Sequence record: NC_023693.1
Reading direction: 5' to 3' (one strand)
Source of the DNA: Escherichia phage phi92
DNA: 64,000 nucleotides
The notes beneath the pieces were generated by a model. The model saw only the letters and a program-made list of their open reading frames with translations. It did no database searches and was not told where the DNA came from. Shown one piece after another: positions 4,707 to 47,122 of this stretch. The number at the start of each line of letters is the position of its first letter. Position 1 is the stretch's first letter. A program made the position numbers and the translations under genes.

Positions 4707-6668
4707 GTGATTTTAACACGTCCAAATAGTGCCATTGCAGACATGGTAGAGTCTCGCTATAGAAAGCGTAGAAGTTTTGCAAGTGGTTTTACCTTAAGAG
4801 ATGCTCGTGAAGCATTGCTCTTTGAAACTGACGGTAACTACTATCAGTGGAAAGGTTCTCTACCTAAAGTTGTACCTGCTAACTCTACTCCTACATCTAC
4901 TGGAGGGATTTCAGATACAGCTTGGAAAAATGTGGGTAATGCAGATGACATTGCTCAAATAGAATCAGAATTAGATGCTATTGAAGCTGAAATTGAAGAT
5001 CTTAGAGAATCCATCCCAGAAGCTGGTAAATCAGCTTACCAAATTGCCGTAGACAATGGTTTCCAAGGTACTGAGACACAGTGGTTGGCTTCTTTAAAAG
5101 GTGATCCAGGTGCTCCATTAAAGCTACTAGGGACGCTATCTAATACCAACCAATTACCTACAACTGGAAACAATGCAGGGGATGCATGGATTGTAGGCGA
5201 GAATATGTATGCTTGGGATGGTACTGCTTGGAGAAAAGTAAACTCACAGGGGCCAGAAGGTAAATCTGCTTATGAAGTATGGCTTGCAGCAGGAAACGAA
5301 GGTACAGAACTAGATTATCTTGCCGCAATTAAAGGTGATAAAGGGGAGCCTGGCCCAGAGGGGCCACAAGGTGTGCCAGGTAATAATGCTAATGGTTTTG
5401 ATTACCAAGGCGCAGCTAATTCCGTTTCAGATCTTCCTTCTGCATCTCCTGGAAACACATCTCAAGCATGGAGTATTGGTACATATCTATACGTGTCAAA
5501 CGGTGTAGAATGGATCAATATGGGCGCTATAGTGGGGCCAAAAGGAGATAAAGGCGACAAAGGAGATAAGGGTAACACTGGTGATTCAGCTTATCAAGTC
5601 TGGTTAAATGCTGGTAACGTTGGTACTATTGACGAATATATTGCCTCTCTGAAAGGAGAAAAAGGTGATAAGGGAGACAAGGGTGATCAAGGTGCACAGG
5701 GTATACAAGGCTTGACGGGGCCAACTGGTGCAGGGTTGACCATTATTGACATTCTGACTAGCACTTCTGAACTACCACAAACTGGAGAAGATGGTGATGG
5801 TTATCTGATCAATAATGAACTTTGGGTCTGGTTGCAAGGAGCCACAGAGTGGACAAATGTTGGTCGTTTAGCTGGTACTCCAATCACTGCAAAAGGATAC
5901 GTTGCGTCTGCAAGTGCACTTCCTCCTACAGCCAATTACGGTGATGCTTATCTGACGGAAGATACAGGTCATCTTTACATTTACACCTATGATGAACAAA
6001 CTCAAACTGCTGAATATGTAGATATGGGTAGTTTGAAAGGTGATAAGGGTGAAAAAGGTGACGCTGGTACTAACGGTACAGACGGTGCAACTTGGATTGT
6101 TAAAACAACAGATCCAATCTCTAGTGATGGTAAACAAGGTGATTATGCCTTTAATATCTCCACTGGCGAGGTGTTCTTAAAAACATCTGCAACTATCTGG
6201 ACTTCTCAAGGTACACTACCTAGTATCACAGATGCACCTAGTGATGGTAAGACTTATGCTCGTAAAGATGGAGCATGGGAAGAACTCACTAATTCTGTAG
6301 ATGGTCAAGATATAGTTCCAACAAAAGTAACAACTAATTTTATAGAGGTTACAGCATATACTAACAATTCTGTTACAGGGGACTGGACACCTCCAGGAAC
6401 ACATAACATGAATGTGTTGAATCTTACTGGTAACTCTACTATAAAAGCATGGCCTGGTGTCGAAGATAGCACAAAACCTAAACCATTCTCTGCAATAGTT
6501 TATCTTATCCAAGATGCCACTGGAGGTCGTACTGTTACTTTAGATCCATCTTACAAAGTAATTGGTTCCAGTGATATTAATACAGATCCTAACGGAGTAA
6601 CAATACTACAACTAACATATTGTGGTGTTGGCGATTACGTGGATGCTATTGTTGCTAAACGCACATAA
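4707..6668 (+). CDS. tail fibre with collagen-like G-X-Y repeats
   Basis: 653 aa; runs GDKGEPGPEGPQGVPG and GPKGDKGDKGDKGNTGD and GEKGDKGDKGDQGAQGIQGLTGPTG; RBS aaggag. Confidence 0.6.
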   Translation: MILTRPNSAIADMVESRYRKRRSFASGFTLRDAREALLFETDGNYYQWKGSLPKVVPANSTPTSTGGISDTAWKNVGNADDIAQIESELDAIEAEIEDLRESIPEAGKSAYQIAVDNGFQGTETQWLASLKGDPGAPLKLLGTLSNTNQLPTTGNNAGDAWIVGENMYAWDGTAWRKVNSQGPEGKSAYEVWLAAGNEGTELDYLAAIKGDKGEPGPEGPQGVPGNNANGFDYQGAANSVSDLPSASPGNTSQAWSIGTYLYVSNGVEWINMGAIVGPKGDKGDKGDKGNTGDSAYQVWLNAGNVGTIDEYIASLKGEKGDKGDKGDQGAQGIQGLTGPTGAGLTIIDILTSTSELPQTGEDGDGYLINNELWVWLQGATEWTNVGRLAGTPITAKGYVASASALPPTANYGDAYLTEDTGHLYIYTYDEQTQTAEYVDMGSLKGDKGEKGDAGTNGTDGATWIVKTTDPISSDGKQGDYAFNISTGEVFLKTSATIWTSQGTLPSITDAPSDGKTYARKDGAWEELTNSVDGQDIVPTKVTTNFIEVTAYTNNSVTGDWTPPGTHNMNVLNLTGNSTIKAWPGVEDSTKPKPFSAIVYLIQDATGGRTVTLDPSYKVIGSSDINTDPNGVTILQLTYCGVGDYVDAIVAKRT

Positions 6669-6672
6669 TCAA

Positions 6673-6697
6673 AGCCCCTTCGGGGGCTTATTATTTA
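6673..6697 (+). terminator. rho-independent terminator hairpin
   Basis: AAGCCCC-TTCG-GGGGCTT followed by a T-rich run after the fibre gene. Confidence 0.5.
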
Positions 6698-6707
6698 AGG
6701 AGATTAA

Positions 6708-7316
6708 ATGTATCCTATTCCTTTATTTATGTCAACAACATCAGCTTCAGTAGTAACAGCTACATCTATAACTACTTCCTCTATTGGTATTGCAATAGTT
6801 GGTGGTAAAAAACAACTGACATACACAGTTACACCGGAAGATGGTGCATTATTTGATATAGCTTTTTCATCTTCAGATAATACCAAAATGGTTATAGATA
6901 ATAGTGGTATGATGGAGTTTGTTGCCGAAGGTGGTTTTGATGCAATAATGACAGCTAAAAATAATTTAGGTGCTGTCTTAACTGATCAATCTGGTGGCTA
7001 TGCTTCAGAATTAAGTGTGTACACTGAAAGTCTATCGGCTATGGATGTAGGCACTACTCAACAGTTGGTTGCTACAATCAGTCCAGAAGGTGCTAAAGAC
7101 CTTCCAGATATGGTAATTACATACACCACAACAGATCCAGAAGTAGCTACTGTAAGCCCTACAGGGTTAATAACTGCTCTTAAAGATGGCGGTTGCCGTA
7201 TAGGTTGTACTGCAACGTATCAAGGAACAGTTGTGGCCTCTGATAGGTCTTATTTAGGTGTTAATGCTATTCCTGTTATTTCTAATGTAACAGCCGTATC
7301 TTTAATAACTCAATAG
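6708..7316 (+). CDS. Ig-like (Big_2-type) domain protein
   Basis: 202 aa; T/S/V-rich beta-sandwich-like sequence with ...VATVSPTGLITALKDGGCRIGCTATYQG resembling bacterial Ig-like group 2 domains. Confidence 0.45.
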   Translation: MYPIPLFMSTTSASVVTATSITTSSIGIAIVGGKKQLTYTVTPEDGALFDIAFSSSDNTKMVIDNSGMMEFVAEGGFDAIMTAKNNLGAVLTDQSGGYASELSVYTESLSAMDVGTTQQLVATISPEGAKDLPDMVITYTTTDPEVATVSPTGLITALKDGGCRIGCTATYQGTVVASDRSYLGVNAIPVISNVTAVSLITQ

Positions 7317-8370
7317 CTACAGATGATTCGTTCATTAAAGAAGTTATTGTCTTTGCTGGACAAGATAACGTAAATGCACACTTTACAGAACTATCTGGTG
7401 CAAATAAAGCAGCAATGAGTAGCACAACAGCCCGTAATGCATATGCTACGCAACGTGGTTTAGCAAATGCTGAAGTTCTTCCGTGTTAAATACAGCTTCT
7501 GGATCATCAGCAGCAGATAAATATGCTGACGATAAAGCTGGAACAGGTACACCAGATAACTACTGGTATGATCTGGATAACACAGCAGATGGGCCATGCT
7601 TAACTAACTTTATCACTAAAGTCACACCTTATGCAAGTAAGGTTAAAGCAATTATTTGGGGACAAGGTGAAAATGATGCTGTATCAGCATCTTCGACTGT
7701 TGCAGGTAGGTACAGTAACACTACACGTTACCATGATGCTACGATAGCTATCTTTGATAAGATGCGTACAATAGTTCCTGCTTCTCAAGCAAAAATTGTT
7801 TGGCAGATCCTAGGACGTTCTTATTTATATGGTGTAGAAGTTAATGGTGTGGATTGGCAGAAGTACAGAAATGTACAAAGAACCATCTCTACAGCACGTG
7901 ATGATGTTATCATTGGTTCTTGGGTAGATGGTGCTGAACGTTACAGTGGTTATGTTTATGAAGAAGGTATTGATGGTCGTATCCATTATATTTCTTCTGT
8001 ATACCAAACAGCAGCTACAAAACTTGCTAAATCAGCAGCAGACGGTACAGATTTAACATCAACGTCACCTGTTTGGGTTGATATGTCTGTTCCAACAGGA
8101 GGAGCCGCTGTAAGACAAGCTAACCAAGATGTAATTATCTCTTGGGAACCAGCAGGATATACTAAACATTACTTCCGAAATGTAAACGTCCTCACAGCAG
8201 CAATTCTTACAGAACAAACCCTGGATACTAACACTTACACATTTACTTATGCAGATCAGGTTGAACAATATGGATTTGCAGCAGGTACAACAGTGTTTGA
8301 TGTTGCACACTATGATGCTGATAATGACGTGTTATCACCTCTTGTCAGATTTACAGTCAATGTTACATAA
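7286..8370 (+). pseudogene. SGNH/SASA-type carbohydrate esterase, reading frame interrupted
   Basis: N-terminal block FIKEVIVFAGQDNVNAHF is in one frame (about 7286-7489, no ATG start); remainder with IIWGQGENDA continues in another frame from GTG 7483 to 8370. Confidence 0.45.
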
Positions 8371-8377
8371 ACAAAAA

Positions 8378-8402
8378 GGAGCCATTAGGCTCCTTTTCTT
8401 TT
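8378..8402. terminator. bidirectional terminator hairpin at convergent strand switch
   Basis: GGAGCC-ATTA-GGCTCC flanked by A-run and T-run; + strand genes end at 8370, - strand genes end at 8406. Confidence 0.5.
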
Positions 8403-8405
8403 ATC

Positions 8406-8837
8406 TTAATCAGTGAAAATTACGCTTACATCTTCTTTAGAGAAGAGTTTATGATCTTCACCTTTTGTCTCAAGAGTTTCATACAGATTAAGAAGTTCTG
8501 AAACGTCTTTCTCTACCAGTTTCTTCAATGTTGCAATTTTCTGTTTGCGACTCTTAATACGTTCAGCTACAACCTTACGCTGGTATCCGGCAGTACGATA
8601 ACCTGAGAAAGTTACACCAGTGAGACTTGCAGTTACAGGATCGTAGTGACGTTCAATCTGAAATTTATTAAAAGGTACAGCGTCATCACGAATAATCTTA
8701 CCGCCATTACTTACTTGACGAAGACCAGTAACTTGCTCCAGTCGTGCCATAGAAATCTTTGGAGACAGACCAGAGTCTAGGTTCATACCATTGTTAATCA
8801 GTGCTTTCAGGGTGATTTTGCTGTTCAGTGTACTCAT
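8406..8837 (-). CDS. hypothetical protein
   Basis: 143 aa ORF; strong RBS ggagga upstream of the start; start overlaps the methyltransferase 3' end by 44 nt. Confidence 0.4.
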   Translation of the reverse strand: MSTLNSKITLKALINNGMNLDSGLSPKISMARLEQVTGLRQVSNGGKIIRDDAVPFNKFQIERHYDPVTASLTGVTFSGYRTAGYQRKVVAERIKSRKQKIATLKKLVEKDVSELLNLYETLETKGEDHKLFSKEDVSVIFTD

Positions 8838-11585: not shown

Positions 11586-11722
11586 ATTTTCTCCTATCTC
11601 TTATGGTCTTTGCGTTATTCTAGATGTTCAAACATCTAATTATGAAATGGTTTAAAAGTGCGGAACAACCTTGGCAATAACAGATTGTTCCACATAAAAA
11701 CTCCTTTAAAATCAAAGAGTTG

Positions 11723-14700
11723 TCAGTGACAAGTTGACCATGAACTACCAACATCGTAACCAGCAGTGAGAGGTACATTAAGATTGTAATACTCACCAGC
11801 TTTATTAACAGCGATAGATGCTAATTCTCCAGCACGACTGTAGGCTGTAAACCAACCACCTTTCGGAGATTCATGTACGTTAGCCCAAATCTTGCCAGTA
11901 CGTTTCTCTTCCTCTTCTTTCCAGGCATTAACTTTATCCAAACATTCTTTATCAATTTTCTTTTGTTCCTCTGGATCATCAACTTGAGTCCAACCTAAAG
12001 ATTCTTTAGAGAACCATTTAAAATGCACCAGATCACGAGTTACTTCAAGCTGTGCTTCATCGTGATATGCAATCATTTGTTGAACGAATGACTTATTTTT
12101 CCAGTCATCAACAAAAAAGTCAACAGCTAATCCTTCTTCTTCGATAAGATCGTCGTAGATAACCATTGCTCTTTTTGCACAAATAACACCACCACTCTGG
12201 AACAGAGAGTTAAGTATTGCGTGTGCAGATCGTGTAGGTACTTTCCTACCATCAATACCAAGAATGTATTTCTTACCTGTTTTAACCCAAAAATCATGCA
12301 GACGTTCTTTAAGAAGCGCAAGAGGTTTTGCAGCTTCCCAGAAAGCATCGTATACAAGCTGTCCTGTATACATATCACTACCTATAGTTTTTGCTACTTT
12401 TGCAGCTTGAGCACCATAAGTAATACCATACTTAACAGATTTAGCAGGGCTTCGTTCAAACTTACGACCAATAGTGTCAGAAATACGTCGAGCCATCATT
12501 GTATGAACATCATTAGGTTTTTCCAATAATAGAGCATTACAATATTCGTGTGGTTCCTGCTCGTACCGCCAACAATTCCCTGTAATCGTGATGCAGTCTT
12601 TCTGACGCATAACCCATGTACCGAGTTCTGTTTGTGGACACCAAACATCTTCTACACCCCATTCTTCAATAGTCAGACTTTGAACAGGGATGTGAGAGCG
12701 GTTAGCCAACGTTGCCACTTTTACTTTCTGGTCTTTCGTATTGAAGGCTACAGAAATATTACCCCCATGAACCAGGTATGAGGCAGTTAAGGCTGCTTCA
12801 AAAAGTTCTCCTGGGTTCTGCGCCCAGCGCCAAACAGGTTTTTGTTTATGTTTGTGCCAGTAACCATCCGCAATCAAAAAACCTTCCAAGAAAGCCACAC
12901 GCTCGGCATGAGACATATTAACTACACGTTCTACCCACGGAACATCCCATTTACCTTGTTGAACAGAAGTTAAACTATTTACTTGATCTTGTTCCATGTT
13001 AAATGGAGCATTACAAATAATGTTATCTCCTGTGCAAAGCTCGGCAGTTGTTCTGACTTTAGGCACATAAGTATTCCCTGTACTACGAGTATTAACATAC
13101 CAACGGTGATCTGCTGTTGCACGATAAGTATGGGATTTTCCTTTAATCTCAAACGTCTTACTATTTTTATAGAAGACCTTACCTTTTACTTTAGTCCATT
13201 CTTTAAGTCCTGTTTCTGGGTTATATCCTAAGATTTCATCCCCTTCTTGTAGATCGTGATAACCAACCCAACCTTTACGGGTTAGTGCTTGTGCATCCAT
13301 AGGTACACAGTAGTGTGATTCTATTTTTGCCTCAAGAGAATCAAAGTCATAACCAATTTGGAAGTATTTTGGAACTTCTACACCAAATAAGTTACGCATT
13401 TCATATCCGTACAGAGATGTTACACGTGGGATATTTGCTACTAACCTATGTTTCATACGAGACGTAGCTGCATCACACGTTGCAGCAGGAGTTGGTATAC
13501 GACCATCAGCCCTTACTGCTGCCAGATAACCTTTATCGTAATCCTCTTCATCTTCTTCCCAATCAGCACCACCTCCTAGAATAGAGTTCCTACGGTGTTT
13601 ATACGTAAGATACTGCACAATCTGCGTAGCATAAGGAAACTTTTCACCTAGTGCTTCCAAGTTAGGACAAATATCTTTCTCTTGCCCTTTTGTAAAGGAA
13701 GGGTTAGTAAGCACTTTAACACCACGACCTTTAGCTTTAGCAATACGATCTCTTAGTTTCCATTCCAAAGTTTCTGGTGTGCACTCCAGATGATCACATC
13801 TGTCCTGGCAGAAGTTAGATGCCAATGTTTGATCAACATAGTCACGAATAGCTTTCTCCATTTGTGCTTCATCTTTCTTAATCTTAGTGCCAGATTTAAG
13901 AGTGATATCTTTATCTTTATATTCAGATGGACTCCAACCTAAACCAACTAACCAGTTTTTAATATGTGTCGTGTCGTCTAAAGTAGCAGGTACTGTAGGA
14001 TCACAAATAGGTTCTTCTGCTGGAATAGGTAGTTTAAACTCTTTACCTAAAGCAAATAACCACCAACCATCTTCTTTTTGTACAAGTTCACCAGAATGTT
14101 TCTCTGCAAACTTTATCATGTTACTTGAAGGTTCACCATTCTTTTTAAACTGTAGTTTAGGTGGAATGAATGATTTCAAATAACCTTTAGTAGCAGGTTT
14201 AGGAGGTAGCACAGGTTCTGCCTCTAAACGACATGCTTCCATTCGAGCATCCAGATCACGAATATTATCTTCTGCTTGTTTCATATTGAAAGCAAAGCCA
14301 CGGTGCTCTTGACGTGTAATAATATCCGCTACACGTTGTTCTAAGTTAAATGGTTCAGACCACTTATTATAATCACCCCACTCTTCCATCAAATAACGGA
14401 ACACTGCGGTGTTAGCTTTGTTATCGTAAATACAGTAATACAGCATATCTGCTGCAAATGTTTTAAATCTTTCAGTTTCAGGGATATTTTTTCTAAAATC
14501 AATTTTAACATCCCCTCCAGCTTTCTTAGATAACTCTGCCAGACTATGACCACCGAAGCGATCAGGGTTTAGTGTCTTACTTAAGATCATAGTATCACAA
14601 ATTTCAATGTTACTATTACCCCAAGTATTGTACTTAATACTGTAGTTGAGTTTAAAAAATAATTTAATTGCCAGTAAGTCAAAGTTAATGATGTTATGTC

Positions 14701-15037
14701 CAACTACTTTGGTAATTTTATAGTTTGAATTACCTTTAAATTTACCTGTTCCATTTACAAAATCAGGAAAATCTTTAAGAGGGAAATGGGTATATTCTAA
14801 ATGCTCATATTCCTCCAGTCGGTATTCATACTTTCCGTCAGTCTCAACATACGGACGACCATCGAAAAGATATTTATCACCATCATGGAAAGCAATAATC
14901 TCTCCAGTATCATGACTTTCGCACACAATACAGTGCATTGCAAAACTATCTTTTAAACGATATGGACTTGCCAAGTAATCTACACTTTCGTCATTAAGCA
15001 AGTTGTTACTTTCAATGTCGAAAGTAAAAGCTCCCAT
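11723..15037 (-). CDS. family A DNA polymerase with 3'-5' exonuclease domain, interrupted by an intein
   Basis: Exo I FDIES; motif A DFDSLEAKI; motif B RSPAKSVKYGITYG; motif C YHDEAQLEV; in-frame insertion between motifs A and B. Confidence 0.8.
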   Translation of the reverse strand: MGAFTFDIESNNLLNDESVDYLASPYRLKDSFAMHCIVCESHDTGEIIAFHDGDKYLFDGRPYVETDGKYEYRLEEYEHLEYTHFPLKDFPDFVNGTGKFKGNSNYKITKVVGHNIINFDLLAIKLFFKLNYSIKYNTWGNSNIEICDTMILSKTLNPDRFGGHSLAELSKKAGGDVKIDFRKNIPETERFKTFAADMLYYCIYDNKANTAVFRYLMEEWGDYNKWSEPFNLEQRVADIITRQEHRGFAFNMKQAEDNIRDLDARMEACRLEAEPVLPPKPATKGYLKSFIPPKLQFKKNGEPSSNMIKFAEKHSGELVQKEDGWWLFALGKEFKLPIPAEEPICDPTVPATLDDTTHIKNWLVGLGWSPSEYKDKDITLKSGTKIKKDEAQMEKAIRDYVDQTLASNFCQDRCDHLECTPETLEWKLRDRIAKAKGRGVKVLTNPSFTKGQEKDICPNLEALGEKFPYATQIVQYLTYKHRRNSILGGGADWEEDEEDYDKGYLAAVRADGRIPTPAATCDAATSRMKHRLVANIPRVTSLYGYEMRNLFGVEVPKYFQIGYDFDSLEAKIESHYCVPMDAQALTRKGWVGYHDLQEGDEILGYNPETGLKEWTKVKGKVFYKNSKTFEIKGKSHTYRATADHRWYVNTRSTGNTYVPKVRTTAELCTGDNIICNAPFNMEQDQVNSLTSVQQGKWDVPWVERVVNMSHAERVAFLEGFLIADGYWHKHKQKPVWRWAQNPGELFEAALTASYLVHGGNISVAFNTKDQKVKVATLANRSHIPVQSLTIEEWGVEDVWCPQTELGTWVMRQKDCITITGNCWRYEQEPHEYCNALLLEKPNDVHTMMARRISDTIGRKFERSPAKSVKYGITYGAQAAKVAKTIGSDMYTGQLVYDAFWEAAKPLALLKERLHDFWVKTGKKYILGIDGRKVPTRSAHAILNSLFQSGGVICAKRAMVIYDDLIEEEGLAVDFFVDDWKNKSFVQQMIAYHDEAQLEVTRDLVHFKWFSKESLGWTQVDDPEEQKKIDKECLDKVNAWKEEEEKRTGKIWANVHESPKGGWFTAYSRAGELASIAVNKAGEYYNLNVPLTAGYDVGSSWSTCH
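12575..13309 (-). other. intein inside the DNA polymerase gene (boundaries approximate)
   Basis: Starts CVPMDAQALTRKGW after motif A, contains TADH block and LAGLIDADG-like FLEGFLIADGYW, ends ...ITITGN before CWRY; extein then resumes with NDVHT as in T7 polymerase GDIHT. Confidence 0.5.
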
Positions 15038-33717: not shown

Positions 33718-34188
33718 TTAGTCAGATTCCCAAATGTTGTCTTTCTTAATCCACATTCGTTGATTATCTGAACCTCTATAACGTTTCGTTGTTGGTTGAT
33801 TCATATCATACTTACCATCTATCACTATGTCAACCAGTTTTTTAATTTTTTCTGGAATTTCCTCAAAAAGATATCCTGTATATAAGACAATATCTTTTTT
33901 GTTTCCAAAACAATCTCTTACCTTCTCAAGAACATACTCTACAGTGTCAATGTTCTCTTTGTCAAGAGGTTCACCACCTAAAACTGTTAATCCTTTAATG
34001 AAAGGTCGAGATAAATCTTTCAAGATAAGATCTAATGTTTCAGTAGTGAACTCTTGTCCGTAGTTATACGACCAGGCTTTCTGGTTAAAGCAGCCACGGC
34101 AACCGTGGCTACAACCGCTCACCCACAAAGAGCATCTTACACCGTCACCGTTGAGCATGTCAACAGGTTCATATCCGGCGTAATTCAA
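33718..34188 (-). CDS. nrdG: anaerobic ribonucleotide reductase activating protein (radical SAM)
   Basis: CSHGCRGC radical-SAM cysteine cluster near N-terminus; 156 aa; adjacent to nrdD. Confidence 0.75.
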   Translation of the reverse strand: MNYAGYEPVDMLNGDGVRCSLWVSGCSHGCRGCFNQKAWSYNYGQEFTTETLDLILKDLSRPFIKGLTVLGGEPLDKENIDTVEYVLEKVRDCFGNKKDIVLYTGYLFEEIPEKIKKLVDIVIDGKYDMNQPTTKRYRGSDNQRMWIKKDNIWESD

Positions 34189-35164
34189 AAATGTTTCTCC
34201 CTTTCTAGTACCTCTTGCATTTTACCTTTATTATAAGGGCGAGAGTTAGGGGCAGAAAGGTATCCTGACACTCTTCTGATCACAGATATGGATTCTTCTT
34301 CATGATTACCGCAACTTGGACACTCGAAGCCTTTAGCCGTTGCTTTAAATTCACCATGAAAACCACATTTGAAACACTGATCTACAGGTTGGTTCACGCC
34401 AAAATAAGGAATTTTATTGTAGGCATAATCTACAAGAGTTTCCAGTGCTTGCAAGTTATTTTTAAGGTTTGGTGTTTCTACATAACCTATGTTCCCACCA
34501 TTACTAATTTGTGCAAAACCTTCCTCATAATCCCACTTTTGGAACGGGGTAGTGTGCATCCATACAGGTTGATGGAAAGAGTTTGTCAAGTAGTCACGAT
34601 CAATAGAACCAGGATAGCGATCATTTAACGCTTTGGCAAATTTATAGCACAAGGATTCTGCTGGTGTTCCATACAAACTAAAAGCTAAACCAGAACGTTC
34701 TTTAAATGTGCCACAGATATCCTTCATATATTGAAGGATGTTTTTACCCATTGCTTTTGGATTGGTGTTACCTGGGTATAAAATCTCCATAGCTTCTGCT
34801 AAACCTACATAACCGATACTAATAGAGGCATAACCACCTTCGAATAGTTTACCAATCTCTTCATTAGCTTCTAATCGAGCTAAAGCCCCTTCCATAAACA
34901 ATGTAGGGTTTTGAGATGCTTTGGTATGTCTAATACGGTTAACACGTAGCATATGTGCCTTATACGCCATCTCCATATGTTGTTCCAACAGTTCAGTAAA
35001 TAAGATGCCCTTTTCACGGGACTCTGCTGCAATGATAGGTAAGTTTAAAGAAACTACGCCTAAGTTGAAACGACCATCATATTTTTCACCTTGCTCTGTT
35101 GCATAGTATGACAAGAAACTTCTACACATTATGTTCAAAGTGGCTCGCAAGGCCACTCCCGCAC
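34185..35164 (-). CDS. nrdD: anaerobic ribonucleoside-triphosphate reductase, exon 2
   Basis: Glycyl-radical region RRVSGYL and C-terminal CFKCG...CPSCG zinc site; frame open upstream of the track start into the intron. Confidence 0.7.
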
Positions 35165-35398
35165 CATTACGTGCTGCTGCATGTCACCATGCAGATCAGA
35201 CTATATCTTCATGCTTAAAGCATGTCTACCATTTGGGGTGTCATAGGCTTACACCCTACGCTGCTACATTCATCACAGCTAGTCGTTAGGCATTTCGTAA
35301 CAGTACCCCCTTCTTCTGTGTTGGGAGTTCTGTTACGTTTAGCACGGGATTGTCTCGTTGAGAGTTCCCCCGTTTAGGCAGATTTTACATGAGCAGTT
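35165..35398 (-). ncRNA. group I intron (T4 td/nrdD-like), ORF-less; splice sites approximate
   Basis: About 235 nt interrupt nrdD; - strand reads ...TCTGCCTAAACGGGGGAACTCTCAACGAGACAATCCCGTGCTAAAC... closely resembling the conserved core of the T4 td intron as recalled from memory. Confidence 0.6.
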
Positions 35399-36263
35399 AT
35401 AGTTTACCCATGCTTGTGACGCGACCATCTGAAGATCCTGTAACTTCTTTGTTTAAAGGTACAGAGATAAAATCAGGATAAATGCGTTCAGCACAACACT
35501 CCATTGCCAGTTGCTTCAAATCATAGTTTGGATCGCCAGCTTTCATGTTAACACCATCTTCCAAGAAGAAGATAACTTTAGGAAACACAGGAGTTACCCT
35601 ATCTTTTCCTAATCCTTGTTTGTGCACCATTAGGTAGTTTTTAGTGATCATTCTACCAAAAGCAGAGGTATCCAAACCTAAACTAATTGTTATAAAAGGT
35701 GACTGACCATTTACACTCATTAGAGTGTTCACCTGGTAGATTAAAGTTTGCATTGCATCATAGACCTGTTTATCTACCATACGCATAGCAATATCATAAT
35801 CGCCAACATCGGCATATATTTTATTAAAACTTGCTTTAACGTATTGACTAAGCCCAGTATCAACATGTGCACAAGTTTGTCCACCATATTGGCTAGAAGC
35901 TACTGCTTGAATAATTTGAGTTAGGACAGTAGTCGCTACACCGATAGATTTTGGTTTTTCAATATGTGCATTACCAATACGGAAACCGTTCTCAAGCATA
36001 TCTTGGTAATTTACCAGGCAACAATTAGTTAAAGGTGAGAGTAAATAATCTAAATCGTGAATGTGACCATACCCACTTTTATGCCATTCTGCCAGATCTT
36101 CCGGTAAAATATGGGTCATTGCCATGTGCTTGCTTAGGATACCTGCTAGTAAATCTCGGTGAGTATTAACAATCATTGCAGGTTTGTTTGCATTTTCACG
36201 AGTAAATTCTTCGGATGTTTGTTCGAGGAATCCGATTACATCCTCATATAGTTTTTGGGTCAT
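35399..36263 (-). CDS. nrdD: anaerobic ribonucleoside-triphosphate reductase, exon 1
   Basis: 288 aa N-terminal portion ending a few codons into the intron; contiguous in function with exon 2. Confidence 0.7.
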
Positions 36264-46308: not shown

Positions 46309-46472
46309 TTTGTAAACTCCTCATAGTAAGGTAAAGCCTTGATCAGTTGTTCTGAAGTGCCATTTTGCACCCACGTAACACCATTGTCAACAGAAACATA
46401 CCCTTTTTTGTCAATAAATTTACGCAGACAGCCAGTGAACTTATTTTTGTAGATAACCATGTTTACTCCTTG

Positions 46473-46829
46473 TTACATCCACAGATTATGGAAATACTTA
46501 GCAAACAAAATGCGACCTTCTAAACGATCTTGCCGCTGTTTTTCATTAACTTCTTCTGGTGGAGTTGAATCCTTAAAAGAGGACTCCATTTTTTCAAGAA
46601 TTTCTAGCCAGTGTTCTGCTGCTCGTTCTTCCATATAAGGTAGATAGTCACCTTTAGCGTGTGGGTACATCCGACGAAGTAACCCACTAGGAATTTTAAC
46701 ATTGTTTGTGGCTATCACTTTTGCACGATATGCAGAAAGTGCATTGTAAATCAGTTTACTTAGTGTCACATCTAGATCAAGAAGATCACTCTCTTCAAAT
46801 TGAATTTCATCGTGTACAATTTTCATCAT
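46473..46829 (-). CDS. hypothetical protein
   Basis: 118 aa ORF. Confidence 0.4.
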   Translation of the reverse strand: MMKIVHDEIQFEESDLLDLDVTLSKLIYNALSAYRAKVIATNNVKIPSGLLRRMYPHAKGDYLPYMEERAAEHWLEILEKMESSFKDSTPPEEVNEKQRQDRLEGRILFAKYFHNLWM

Positions 46830-47110
46830 GCCTTCTCCCGATCTGCGTCTAATTTCAACAAGAAAGCTGTATACTCTTCCGAGCCTTGGTGTAAAAACAT
46901 GCGATAAGAGCTTACCAGTTTCTTCGTTGTTGTATAACGTTCCATTTCCCCAACAACACCCCCACCCAGTGTGTAGAGCACAACACCCTCAAACCCAACA
47001 TGAGTTACTACTTCAACCAAATCTGTGTTATCTCAATGGTAGTTAGGTGACACAATAAGATCGCCAACTGCCAGTTTAATGTTTGCTGCTTCGTCTTGTG
47101 AATAGTACAT
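46826..47110 (-). CDS. hypothetical protein interrupted by an in-frame TGA (readthrough, recoding or pseudogene)
   Basis: ATG at 47110 with strong RBS gaggag; 25 codons, TGA at 47033-47035, then 94 further in-frame codons with no RBS of their own. Confidence 0.4.
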
Positions 47111-47122
47111 TTTGTTCTCCTC

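What the first reader, a model, noticed from the sequence alone, without database searches (positions are those of the whole stretch)
6708..8370. Ig-like protein followed by an SGNH esterase whose coding frame is broken twice
The Ig-like ORF ends at 7316. The esterase N-terminal block (VIVFAGQDNVNAHF) lies in a different frame with no start codon (about 7286-7489), and the rest (IIWGQGENDA onward) lies in a third frame from 7483. Tail proteins that pair an Ig-like or fibre domain with a deacetylating esterase are known receptor-modifying enzymes. This gene therefore looks like a recently inactivated or frameshift-regulated tail enzyme.
Basis: seen in the sequence. Interest (0 to 1): 0.5.

Follow-up and report, generated by a model that had tools for sequence, protein, structure and literature searches.

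The report
Broken accessory tail gene in phage phi92
The three reading-frame pieces are the remains of one accessory tail-protein gene of coliphage phi92, broken by a 226-base deletion and a 2-base insertion; every close relative but one has it intact, so this is ordinary recent gene decay and not regulated frameshifting.

Summary
An Ig-like ORF (6708-7316), a start-less block with the esterase N-terminus (7286-7489) and a 295-aa ORF (7483-8370) lie in three frames. The window is Escherichia phage phi92, and the two ORFs are its annotated gp152 and gp153.

In 52 related Justusliebigvirus records the same stretch is one uninterrupted ORF of 628 or 939 aa. Compared with them, phi92 lacks 226 bp at 7296/7297. 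That is a 225-bp deletion between two 7-bp CAGCCGT repeats, plus one extra T lost. phi92 also carries a GT duplication at 7483-7486, which by accident creates gp153's GTG "start". Across ten genomes these are phi92's only private differences in the gene; there are no private substitutions.

Neither frame overlap has a slippery heptamer, and the gp153 start has no Shine-Dalgarno sequence. "Recently inactivated" is therefore supported and "frameshift-regulated" is not. Only gp152 (two Ig-like domains) is likely to be made.

Three other sequences break the same gene in different ways, so it is probably dispensable.

The esterase-like domain is SASA/SGNH-like and is homologous to two domains of N4 gp65. 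Its nucleophile Ser is Asp (GQDN) in all orthologs examined, so esterase activity was doubtful even before the breaks.

A sequencing artefact cannot be excluded without reads. Interest is low.

The parts
6672..6689 (+). Terminator-like hairpin that ends the upstream gp151 tail-fibre unit
   Evidence: 7-bp stem with 5 GC pairs, followed by a T-rich tail.
6697..6702 (+). Shine-Dalgarno AAGGAG of the ancestral gene, now serving gp152
   Evidence: duplex with the 16S 3' end is -9.2 kcal/mol, which is typical of genes in this window.
6708..7316 (+). Remnant 1 = annotated Phi92_gp152 (202 aa). It holds ancestral codons 1-197 (two Big_2 Ig-like domains), then 5 out-of-frame codons (SLITQ) and a stop.
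   Evidence: (exact match to CBY99581.1 / YP_009012484.1).
7291..7297 (+). Deletion junction: the single surviving copy of the 7-bp direct repeat CAGCCGT. Relatives have two copies 225 bp apart. phi92 lacks the 225 bp between them and one further T just after the repeat (GTTATC became GTATC), 226 bp in all.
7298..7482 (+). Remnant 2: ancestral codons 273-334 in the -1 frame. It holds the esterase-like block I (VIVFAGQDNVNAHF). There is no start codon and no way to reach it from gp152 without a frameshift. The open stretch runs 7286-7489.
   Evidence: (PHROG 32204 positions 296-357, E 5e-33).
7483..7486 (+). GT tandem duplication: CCGTTAAAT in all relatives is CCGTGTTAAAT here. It shifts the frame again. 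It creates both the TAA that closes remnant 2 and the GTG annotated as the gp153 start.
   Evidence: The phi92 form is absent from IMG/VR while the wild-type form is present.
7483..8370 (+). Remnant 3 = annotated Phi92_gp153 (295 aa). It holds ancestral codons 335-628: the rest of the SASA-like domain (block III GQGENDA, His in RIHY) and a C-terminal beta module.
   Evidence: exact match to CBY99582.1 / YP_009012485.1. The upstream SD duplex is only -0.5 kcal/mol, equal to the median of random positions.
8374..8397 (.). Bidirectional terminator-like hairpin that closes the gene and the convergent minus-strand gene

Best explanation
Window 6708-8370 is a recently decayed copy of a single accessory tail-protein gene of Escherichia phage phi92. 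In relatives the gene encodes one protein of 628 aa, or 939 aa with an extra variable C-terminal domain. Its order of parts is: two Ig-like (Big_2) domains, a roughly 75-aa beta module, a SASA/SGNH-like domain, and a C-terminal beta module. Three lesions are visible in phi92. (1) A 225-bp deletion between two 7-bp direct repeats; on its own this would have excised the 75-aa module exactly in frame. (2) Loss of one more T at that junction, which shifts the frame by -1. (3) A GT duplication 186 bp downstream, which shifts the frame by a further -1. Shown: the lesions, their uniqueness to phi92, and the collinearity of all fragments with the intact orthologs. Inferred: translation from the native ribosome-binding site and ATG yields only gp152 (two Ig-like domains plus five junk residues). 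Also inferred: the block I fragment is untranslated, and gp153 is an annotation artefact of a GTG created by the insertion, with no Shine-Dalgarno sequence. The gene appears dispensable in propagation, because three other sequences break it in unrelated ways.
For: Identity of the window: gp151, gp152 and gp153 are exact matches to phi92 proteins. Single ORF in relatives: annotated as 1887-nt or 2820-nt CDSs; tblastn of the arall protein gives one piece at 100% coverage in all 52 Justusliebigvirus records; all 52 span 585 bp where the window has 361 bp. Exact lesions. phi92 has 0 private substitutions against 9 relatives in this gene. In 49 kb of window-versus-arall alignment, no other uncompensated frame-breaking small indel falls inside a long ORF. 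No slippery heptamers. No SD for gp153. Independent broken alleles: UAB_1 has a 1111-bp out-of-frame deletion; contig DABUWY010000024.1 has GGA>TGA at codon 353; a Logan SRR27143257 contig has a 4-bp TAAC duplication. The phi92 junction and the GT insertion were not found in IMG/VR, and the junction was not found in JGI metagenomes.
Against: No reads or independent phi92 assembly were available, so part or all of the lesions could be errors in the 2010-era deposit. Three indel events with zero private substitutions is an unusual pattern for neutral decay. It could point to one complex mutational event, to selection for loss, or to an artefact. I could not read the original phi92 paper, so I do not know whether gp152 or gp153 peptides were seen in virions.
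Confidence: 0.82

Rival explanations
1. Sequencing or assembly artefact: the real phi92 gene is intact, or carries only the in-frame 225-bp domain deletion, and the 1-nt loss and/or the GT insertion are errors in the deposited sequence.
For: All lesions cluster within 190 bp. phi92 has no private substitutions in the gene. The lone T loss sits at a TT dinucleotide next to a deletion junction, where a mixed population could confuse a consensus. No other public contig carries the 202-aa protein (1 contig).
Against: A 225-bp deletion bounded by 7-bp repeats is a classic replication-slippage product, not an assembly error. A GT dinucleotide duplication is not a homopolymer-type error. The rest of the 49 kb compared shows no uncompensated frame-breaking indel inside long ORFs, so the record is not generally error-prone. 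Real independent disruptions of the same gene exist elsewhere.
Confidence: 0.17
2. Programmed or regulated frameshifting: ribosomes make two successive -1 shifts to produce a full-length Ig-esterase protein at low level.
For: Both frame changes are formally -1 (frame 0 to 2 to 1), and the downstream frames are still fully open.
Against: There is no X XXY YYZ heptamer and no run longer than 3 nt in either overlap. The second overlap is only 16 nt. All 52 relatives encode the protein without any shift, so the shift sites are not conserved features but private indels. No double programmed -1 shift of this kind is known to me.
Confidence: 0.02
3. Functional gene fission: gp152 (an Ig-only decoration or adhesin) and gp153 (the C-terminal two-thirds of the esterase-like domain plus a beta module) are both expressed as separate working proteins.
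For: RefSeq annotates both as 'tail protein'. The GT insertion creates an in-frame GTG. Truncations that leave only the Ig module recur: phi92 at codon 197, UAB_1 at about codon 190, and the 193-aa P0025 on 12 contigs.
Against: gp153 has no Shine-Dalgarno sequence (-0.5 kcal/mol, the random-position median). It lacks the first strand and block I of the domain, so it would probably not fold. No promoter-like signal above background lies upstream.
Confidence: 0.05

Closest known systems
Justusliebigvirus 'tail protein / tail carbohydrate esterase / lateral tail fiber protein' (arall_18 QHR67462.1, 628 aa; VEcB YP_009987358.1; KMB37 WQN06861.1, 939 aa)
   Same: 96-99% nucleotide identity. Same position after the colanidase and the collagen-like fibre gene. 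All three phi92 fragments are collinear with it.
   Different: phi92 lacks 226 bp and has 2 extra bp, so no full-length product is encoded. phi92 is of the short (628-aa) type, without the roughly 311-aa variable C-terminal domain of the 939-aa alleles.
Phage N4 gp65, the non-contractile sheath and receptor-binding protein (PDB 9lc0, 9yf4, 9yf5, 9yft)
   Same: A profile of the esterase-like domain family matches two tandem domains of gp65 (residues 434-608 and 724-977) with whole-protein E 1.4e-63. The single arall sequence gives E 4e-11. The C-terminal beta module matches the gp65 family, PHROG 15324.
   Different: gp65 is a 1382-aa, 10-domain sheath subunit of a podovirus (PMC13434306). The phi92-group protein has a different architecture (Ig-Ig-beta-SASA-beta) and sits in a myovirus tail-fibre cluster. 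Block I is GESQ in gp65 domain 1 and GQDN here.
SASA / carbohydrate esterase (Pfam PF03629) branch of SGNH hydrolases, e.g. PDB 2apj and 1zmb
   Same: 12 of 16 family members hit PF03629, best E 2.9e-9. The profile hits 2apj (E 9e-4) and 1zmb around the QGE(N/S)D block III. The top Foldseek hits of a low-confidence model are SGNH/GDSL esterases.
   Different: The phi92-group protein itself scores below Pfam's threshold. It also has Asp instead of the block I Ser nucleophile.
SGNH-esterase tailspikes that deacetylate O-antigen (G7C gp63.1; Moo19/B2 tailspikes)
   Same: A phage tail protein that carries an SGNH-type domain.
   Different: No sequence relationship was tested or found here. Those enzymes keep the Ser nucleophile. 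Function by analogy only.
Programmed -1 frameshifting in phage tail genes (lambda G/GT-type tail assembly chaperones)
   Same: Two overlapping frames inside a tail-gene region.
   Different: Those sites have conserved slippery heptamers and are conserved across relatives. Neither is true here.

Membership tests
Gene remnant (pseudogene) of the Justusliebigvirus 628-aa tail protein | Orthologs in close relatives are one uninterrupted ORF | tested here: met
   52 records, single tblastn piece, 100% coverage.
Gene remnant (pseudogene) of the Justusliebigvirus 628-aa tail protein | The fragments are collinear with the ortholog, and each break is explained by a specific indel | tested here: met
   a 226-bp gap and a GT insertion, and nothing else.
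Gene remnant (pseudogene) of the Justusliebigvirus 628-aa tail protein | Downstream fragments lack their own translation signals | tested here: met
   Remnant 2 has no start. The gp153 GTG has SD energy -0.5 kcal/mol, against -9.2 for gp152.
Gene remnant (pseudogene) of the Justusliebigvirus 628-aa tail protein | The lesions are present in the phage itself and not only in the deposited sequence | not testable with these tools
   No reads and no second phi92 assembly. The 202-aa protein is seen on one contig only.
Programmed ribosomal -1 frameshift | Slippery heptamer X XXY YYZ in the upstream frame within the overlap | tested here: not met
   none at 7270-7316 or at 7460-7489.
Programmed ribosomal -1 frameshift | The two-frame arrangement is conserved in relatives | tested here: not met
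   the relatives are in one frame.
SGNH hydrolase | Block I nucleophile Ser (GDS / GQSN) | tested here: not met
   GQDN in phi92 and in all Justusliebigvirus orthologs, and GGDN in the about 48%-identical homolog P0049. Most distant homologs have GQSN.
SGNH hydrolase | Block III Asn (GxND) | tested here: met
   GQGENDA. G120 and E121 are invariant and D123 nearly invariant in alignment A1.
SGNH hydrolase | Block V catalytic His (DxxH) | tested here: inconclusive
   The His is invariant (H226 of A1, RIHY), but no Asp lies at -3. Here the sequence is DGRIH, with Asp at -4.
SGNH hydrolase | Flavodoxin-like alpha/beta/alpha fold | tested here: inconclusive
   The AF2 model of gp153 is weak (mean pLDDT 51, pTM 0.54). 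The best Foldseek hits are SGNH/GDSL esterases and N4 gp65, but all have E >= 4e-3 and TM about 0.3.
Pfam SASA (PF03629) | Score at or above the gathering threshold (24.8 bits) | tested here: not met
   14-17 bits for the phi92 and arall proteins. However, 12 of 16 family members match at E <= 0.01, best 2.9e-9.
Big_2 Ig-like domain protein | Pfam PF02368 above threshold | tested here: met
   55.2 bits against a cutoff of 22.8, in two stretches.

The most novel reading that the evidence does not exclude
Loss of everything downstream of the second Ig-like domain is selected rather than accidental. Three different alleles end within about 8 codons of each other at the Ig2 boundary: phi92 at codon 197, UAB_1 at about 190, and a 193-aa form on 12 contigs whose DNA I could not inspect. 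On this reading the Ig-only product is a working stand-alone virion decoration or adhesin, and shedding the esterase-like and receptor modules is adaptive on particular hosts (encapsulated K1/K92 E. coli, Salmonella). That would change how the 'Swiss-army-knife' adsorption apparatus of the reference phage phi92 is compared with its relatives.
Probability: 0.1. Interest if true: 0.45.

Novelty: new member of a known kind. Interest (0 to 1): 0.2.

Why it matters
phi92 is the reference phage for multivalent "Swiss-army-knife" host adsorption, and one of its fibres (fibre II) is still unassigned in the 2026 cryo-EM study (PMC13450770). gp152 and gp153 are remnants of one accessory tail protein that 52 relatives encode intact. 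This warns against treating them as two genuine tail proteins. It means phi92 virions probably lack a component that its relatives carry. It also matters for host-range comparisons and for phage engineering within the genus. Beyond that, this is a routine case of gene decay in a long-propagated laboratory phage.

Tried and rejected
- Programmed frameshifting: rejected (no slippery sites, not conserved).
- Independent expression of gp153: judged unlikely (no SD).
- The search for homologous proteins with the esterase domain and with the family profile returned only 2 and 4 proteins. Diverse homologs came instead from the representative search (66 hits in 1.84 billion proteins).
- Single-sequence AF2 of P0046 was unusable (pLDDT 37). 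The "beta-sandwich / FN3-like" nature of the deleted 75-aa module therefore rests only on predicted strands and on weak similarity to the C-terminal module (E 0.021). Pfam finds nothing for it.
- The 4-row AF2 model of gp153 was weak, and its fold search is only suggestive.
- A search of complete E. coli genomes for the gene found nothing.
- The original phi92 genome paper is not held, and no held paper mentions phi92 gp152 or gp153.
- The one genome-contig hit to the junction pattern (Gracilibacillus orientalis) is a 21-nt match of the size expected by chance in 596 Gb.

Full report
**Observation.**
- ORF 6708-7316 (202 aa) starts at an ATG preceded by AAGGAG.
- A second frame is open over 7286-7489. 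It contains ...SFIKEVIVFAGQDNVNAHF... but has no usable start.
- A third frame is open from a GTG at 7483 to a stop at 8370 (295 aa, containing AIIWGQGENDA).

Pfam finds two Big_2 Ig-like domains in the first ORF (E 7e-15). It gives only a sub-threshold SASA (sialate-acetylesterase-type) hit in the third ORF (E 0.008, 16 bits against a cutoff of 24.8). All three pieces match one phage family, PHROG 32204 "tail protein", collinearly. They cover profile positions 1-219, 296-357 and 358-655, with E 2e-89, 5e-33 and 3e-178. So they are parts of one gene, with about 75 profile positions missing between the first and second piece.

**Source.** Exact look-up shows the window is Escherichia phage phi92 (148,612 bp). 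The ORFs are Phi92_gp152 (CBY99581.1) and Phi92_gp153 (CBY99582.1), both named "tail protein". The upstream 653-aa ORF is the gp151 tail fibre. phi92 itself is not in the phage collection that was searched.

**Comparison with relatives.**
- Megablast of 6600-8450 finds 58 records. The 30 best listed match the 1851-base query over 2075 or 3008 bases.
- A 361-base query across both breaks spans 585 bases in all 52 full-length relatives.
- The region is annotated as one CDS: 1887 nt (628 aa) in muut, arall, cardinal, VEcB, ECGD1, AV123 and AMO3598, and 2820 nt (939 aa) in KMB37, where it is named "tail carbohydrate esterase".
- tblastn with the arall protein gives a single piece at 100% coverage in every one of those records.

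Pairwise and ten-genome alignments show exactly two differences that are private to phi92.
1. A 226-bp gap at window 7296/7297.
2. An extra GT at 7483-7486 (CCGTTAAAT becomes CCGTGTTAAAT).

Every other base of the phi92 gene is shared with at least one of nine relatives, so there are 0 private substitutions.

The deleted segment is bounded in relatives by two copies of CAGCCGT that lie 225 bp apart. BLAST resolves the event as a 225-bp repeat-to-repeat deletion plus loss of one T immediately after the junction. The window keeps one repeat copy, at 7291-7297. The 225-bp deletion alone would have removed codons for a roughly 75-aa module cleanly and in frame. The extra T loss shifts the frame by -1, and the GT duplication shifts it by a further -1. 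This reproduces the observed frame order 0, 2, 1.

The GT duplication also creates two things at once. One is the TAA that ends the middle piece. The other is the GTG that the annotation uses as the gp153 start.

**Is it regulated frameshifting?** No.
- Neither overlap (7286-7316 and 7474-7489) contains an X XXY YYZ heptamer or a homopolymer run longer than 3 nt.
- The arrangement is not conserved in any relative.
- About 75 codons are physically absent.

**Is gp153 expressed on its own?** Probably not. Its upstream 17 nt pair with the 16S 3' end at only -0.5 kcal/mol. That equals the median of random window positions, against -9.2 for gp152 and a median of -8.7 for long ORFs. Promoter-like matches are at background level. 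Terminator-like hairpins flank the whole unit at 6672-6689 and 8374-8397.

The inferred outcome is a single product, gp152. It consists of ancestral residues 1-197 (two Ig-like domains) plus SLITQ.

**Real or artefact?**

Evidence that the lesions are real:
- Over 49 kb of window-versus-arall alignment (98.3% identity), the only uncompensated frame-breaking small indels inside long ORFs are the two in this gene. The other differences there are a self-compensating cluster in a divergent junction at 11599-11670, 1-nt indels outside long ORFs, and presence/absence of whole segments. So the record is not generally error-ridden.
- A repeat-bounded 225-bp deletion and a dinucleotide duplication are typical replication-slippage products, not homopolymer miscalls.

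Evidence that leaves room for an artefact:
- Three indels with no accompanying substitution, all within 190 bp, is an odd pattern.
- No independent phi92 assembly exists in the collections. The 202-aa protein is on one contig only.
- The phi92 junction and the GT-insertion sequence are absent from IMG/VR, and the junction is absent from JGI metagenomes. The wild-type sequence at the second site is present in three IMG/VR contigs.

I put about 0.8 on real lesions and about 0.17 on a partial or full artefact.

**The gene breaks repeatedly.**
- Salmonella phage UAB_1 has an unrelated 1111-bp out-of-frame deletion. It leaves a 190-aa "Ig-like protein" and a small C-terminal remnant.
- A phage contig in assembly GCA_014709535.1 carries GGA>TGA at codon 353.
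- A Logan contig (SRR27143257) has a 4-bp TAAC duplication in the esterase-like region.
- A 193-aa form (P0025, on 12 contigs) ends at almost the same place as gp152. I could not inspect its DNA.

The gene therefore looks dispensable under at least some propagation conditions.

**What the intact protein is.**
- A full HMMER scan of 1.84 billion representatives with gp153 finds only 66 homologs. Most are internal domains of large proteins of 500-2300 aa.
- A 16-member alignment of the domain (A1) matches phage N4 gp65 twice, at residues 434-608 and 724-977, with whole-protein E 1.4e-63. gp65 is the non-contractile sheath and receptor-binding protein (PDB 9lc0, 9yf4; PMC13434306).
- The same profile matches SASA-family esterases 2apj and 1zmb weakly.
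- 12 of the 16 members hit Pfam SASA, with best E 2.9e-9.
- A weak AF2 model of gp153 (pLDDT 51) retrieves mostly SGNH/GDSL esterases and N4 gp65, but only at E >= 4e-3.

So the domain is SASA/SGNH-like.

In block I, however, the phi92 group reads GQDN and the about 48%-identical homolog P0049 (a 647-aa protein of unknown source) reads GGDN. Most distant homologs read GQSN. The nucleophile Ser is therefore Asp, and this Asp is conserved in all Justusliebigvirus orthologs aligned and in P0049.
- Block III (GQGENDA) and the His (RIHY) are retained.
- Other subfamilies, including N4 gp65 domain 2, have lost these motifs altogether.

I infer that even the intact protein may be a glycan-binding module rather than an active serine esterase. 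This is untested.

The 939-aa alleles add a roughly 311-aa C-terminal domain that comes in at least two divergent types, as expected of a receptor-binding tip. phi92 derives from the short type.

**Literature.**
- The BASEL paper annotates orthologs as lateral tail fibre proteins and notes that component assignment in phi92-like phages is unclear (PMC8594841).
- The BME3 paper notes that its 939-aa tail fibre is shared by the genus "except for phage phi92" (PMC12210895).
- The 2026 phi92 cryo-EM study does not list gp152 or gp153 among fibre candidates and leaves fibre II unassigned (PMC13450770).
- No held paper discusses gp152 and gp153 as remnants of one gene.

**Verdict.**
The "frameshift-regulated" half is not.
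- The "esterase" label needs the caveat about the missing Ser.
- This is ordinary gene decay in a long-propagated reference phage. It is useful as an annotation correction and as a caution for structural and host-range work on phi92, but it is not mechanistically new.

Noticed in passing
window 11723-15037 (- strand); insertion at about 12575-13306: The family A DNA polymerase ORF is 1104 aa here and 3315 nt in UAB_1, but 859 aa in arall. The window carries an in-frame insertion of about 733-735 bp relative to arall, possibly an intein or an inserted domain. Pfam sees only DNA_pol_A.
   Followed up: partly
window 34185-36263 (- strand), gap about 35157-35396: The anaerobic ribonucleotide reductase large subunit is split into two ORFs in both phages. 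arall has an extra 510-nt ORF (arall_59) between the halves, which the window lacks. This looks like an intron with or without a homing-endonuclease gene.
   Followed up: partly
window 11672-11693: The window lacks about 515 bp that correspond to most of arall_24 (a 198-aa hypothetical protein). The flanking 11599-11670 stretch is divergent, with self-compensating 1-nt indels.
   Followed up: no
window 46314-47116: arall has about 510 bp (the arall_80-82 region) that are absent from the window, and the window has about 290 bp that are absent from arall. This is small-ORF turnover in the early region.
   Followed up: no
L003 3109-5928 (KMB37); proteins P0002, P0017, P0030: Long (937-942 aa) alleles of the gene carry an additional C-terminal domain of about 311 aa. 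It exists in at least two strongly divergent sequence types, ends in ...GLKYYD and has no Pfam match. It is probably the host-specific tip.
   Followed up: partly
homolog alignment; PDB 9lc0_I residues 434-608 and 724-977: The SASA-like domain family is rare (66 representatives in 1.84 billion). It splits into GQSN (catalytic-looking) members and several subfamilies that have lost the Ser (GQDN, GINSL, GGSY). N4 gp65 contains two tandem copies, and the second is fully degenerate.
   Followed up: partly
L004 (Salmonella phage UAB_1) 3509-4286: UAB_1 annotates a 190-aa 'putative Ig-like protein' and a 73-aa ORF. These are remnants of the same gene after a 1111-bp out-of-frame deletion.
   Followed up: yes
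window 4707-6668: gp151 combines a Tail_spike_N (TSP1/Gp66-type) N-terminal anchor domain, collagen-like GDK repeats and a weak Fibritin_C match. The 2026 cryo-EM paper could not place it in the fibre II density.
   Followed up: no
L017 (Gracilibacillus orientalis NZ_FOTR01000005.1) 1131-1151: A single exact 21-nt match to the phi92 deletion-junction pattern. About 0.5 such matches are expected by chance in 596 Gb, so I regard it as coincidence.
   Followed up: no
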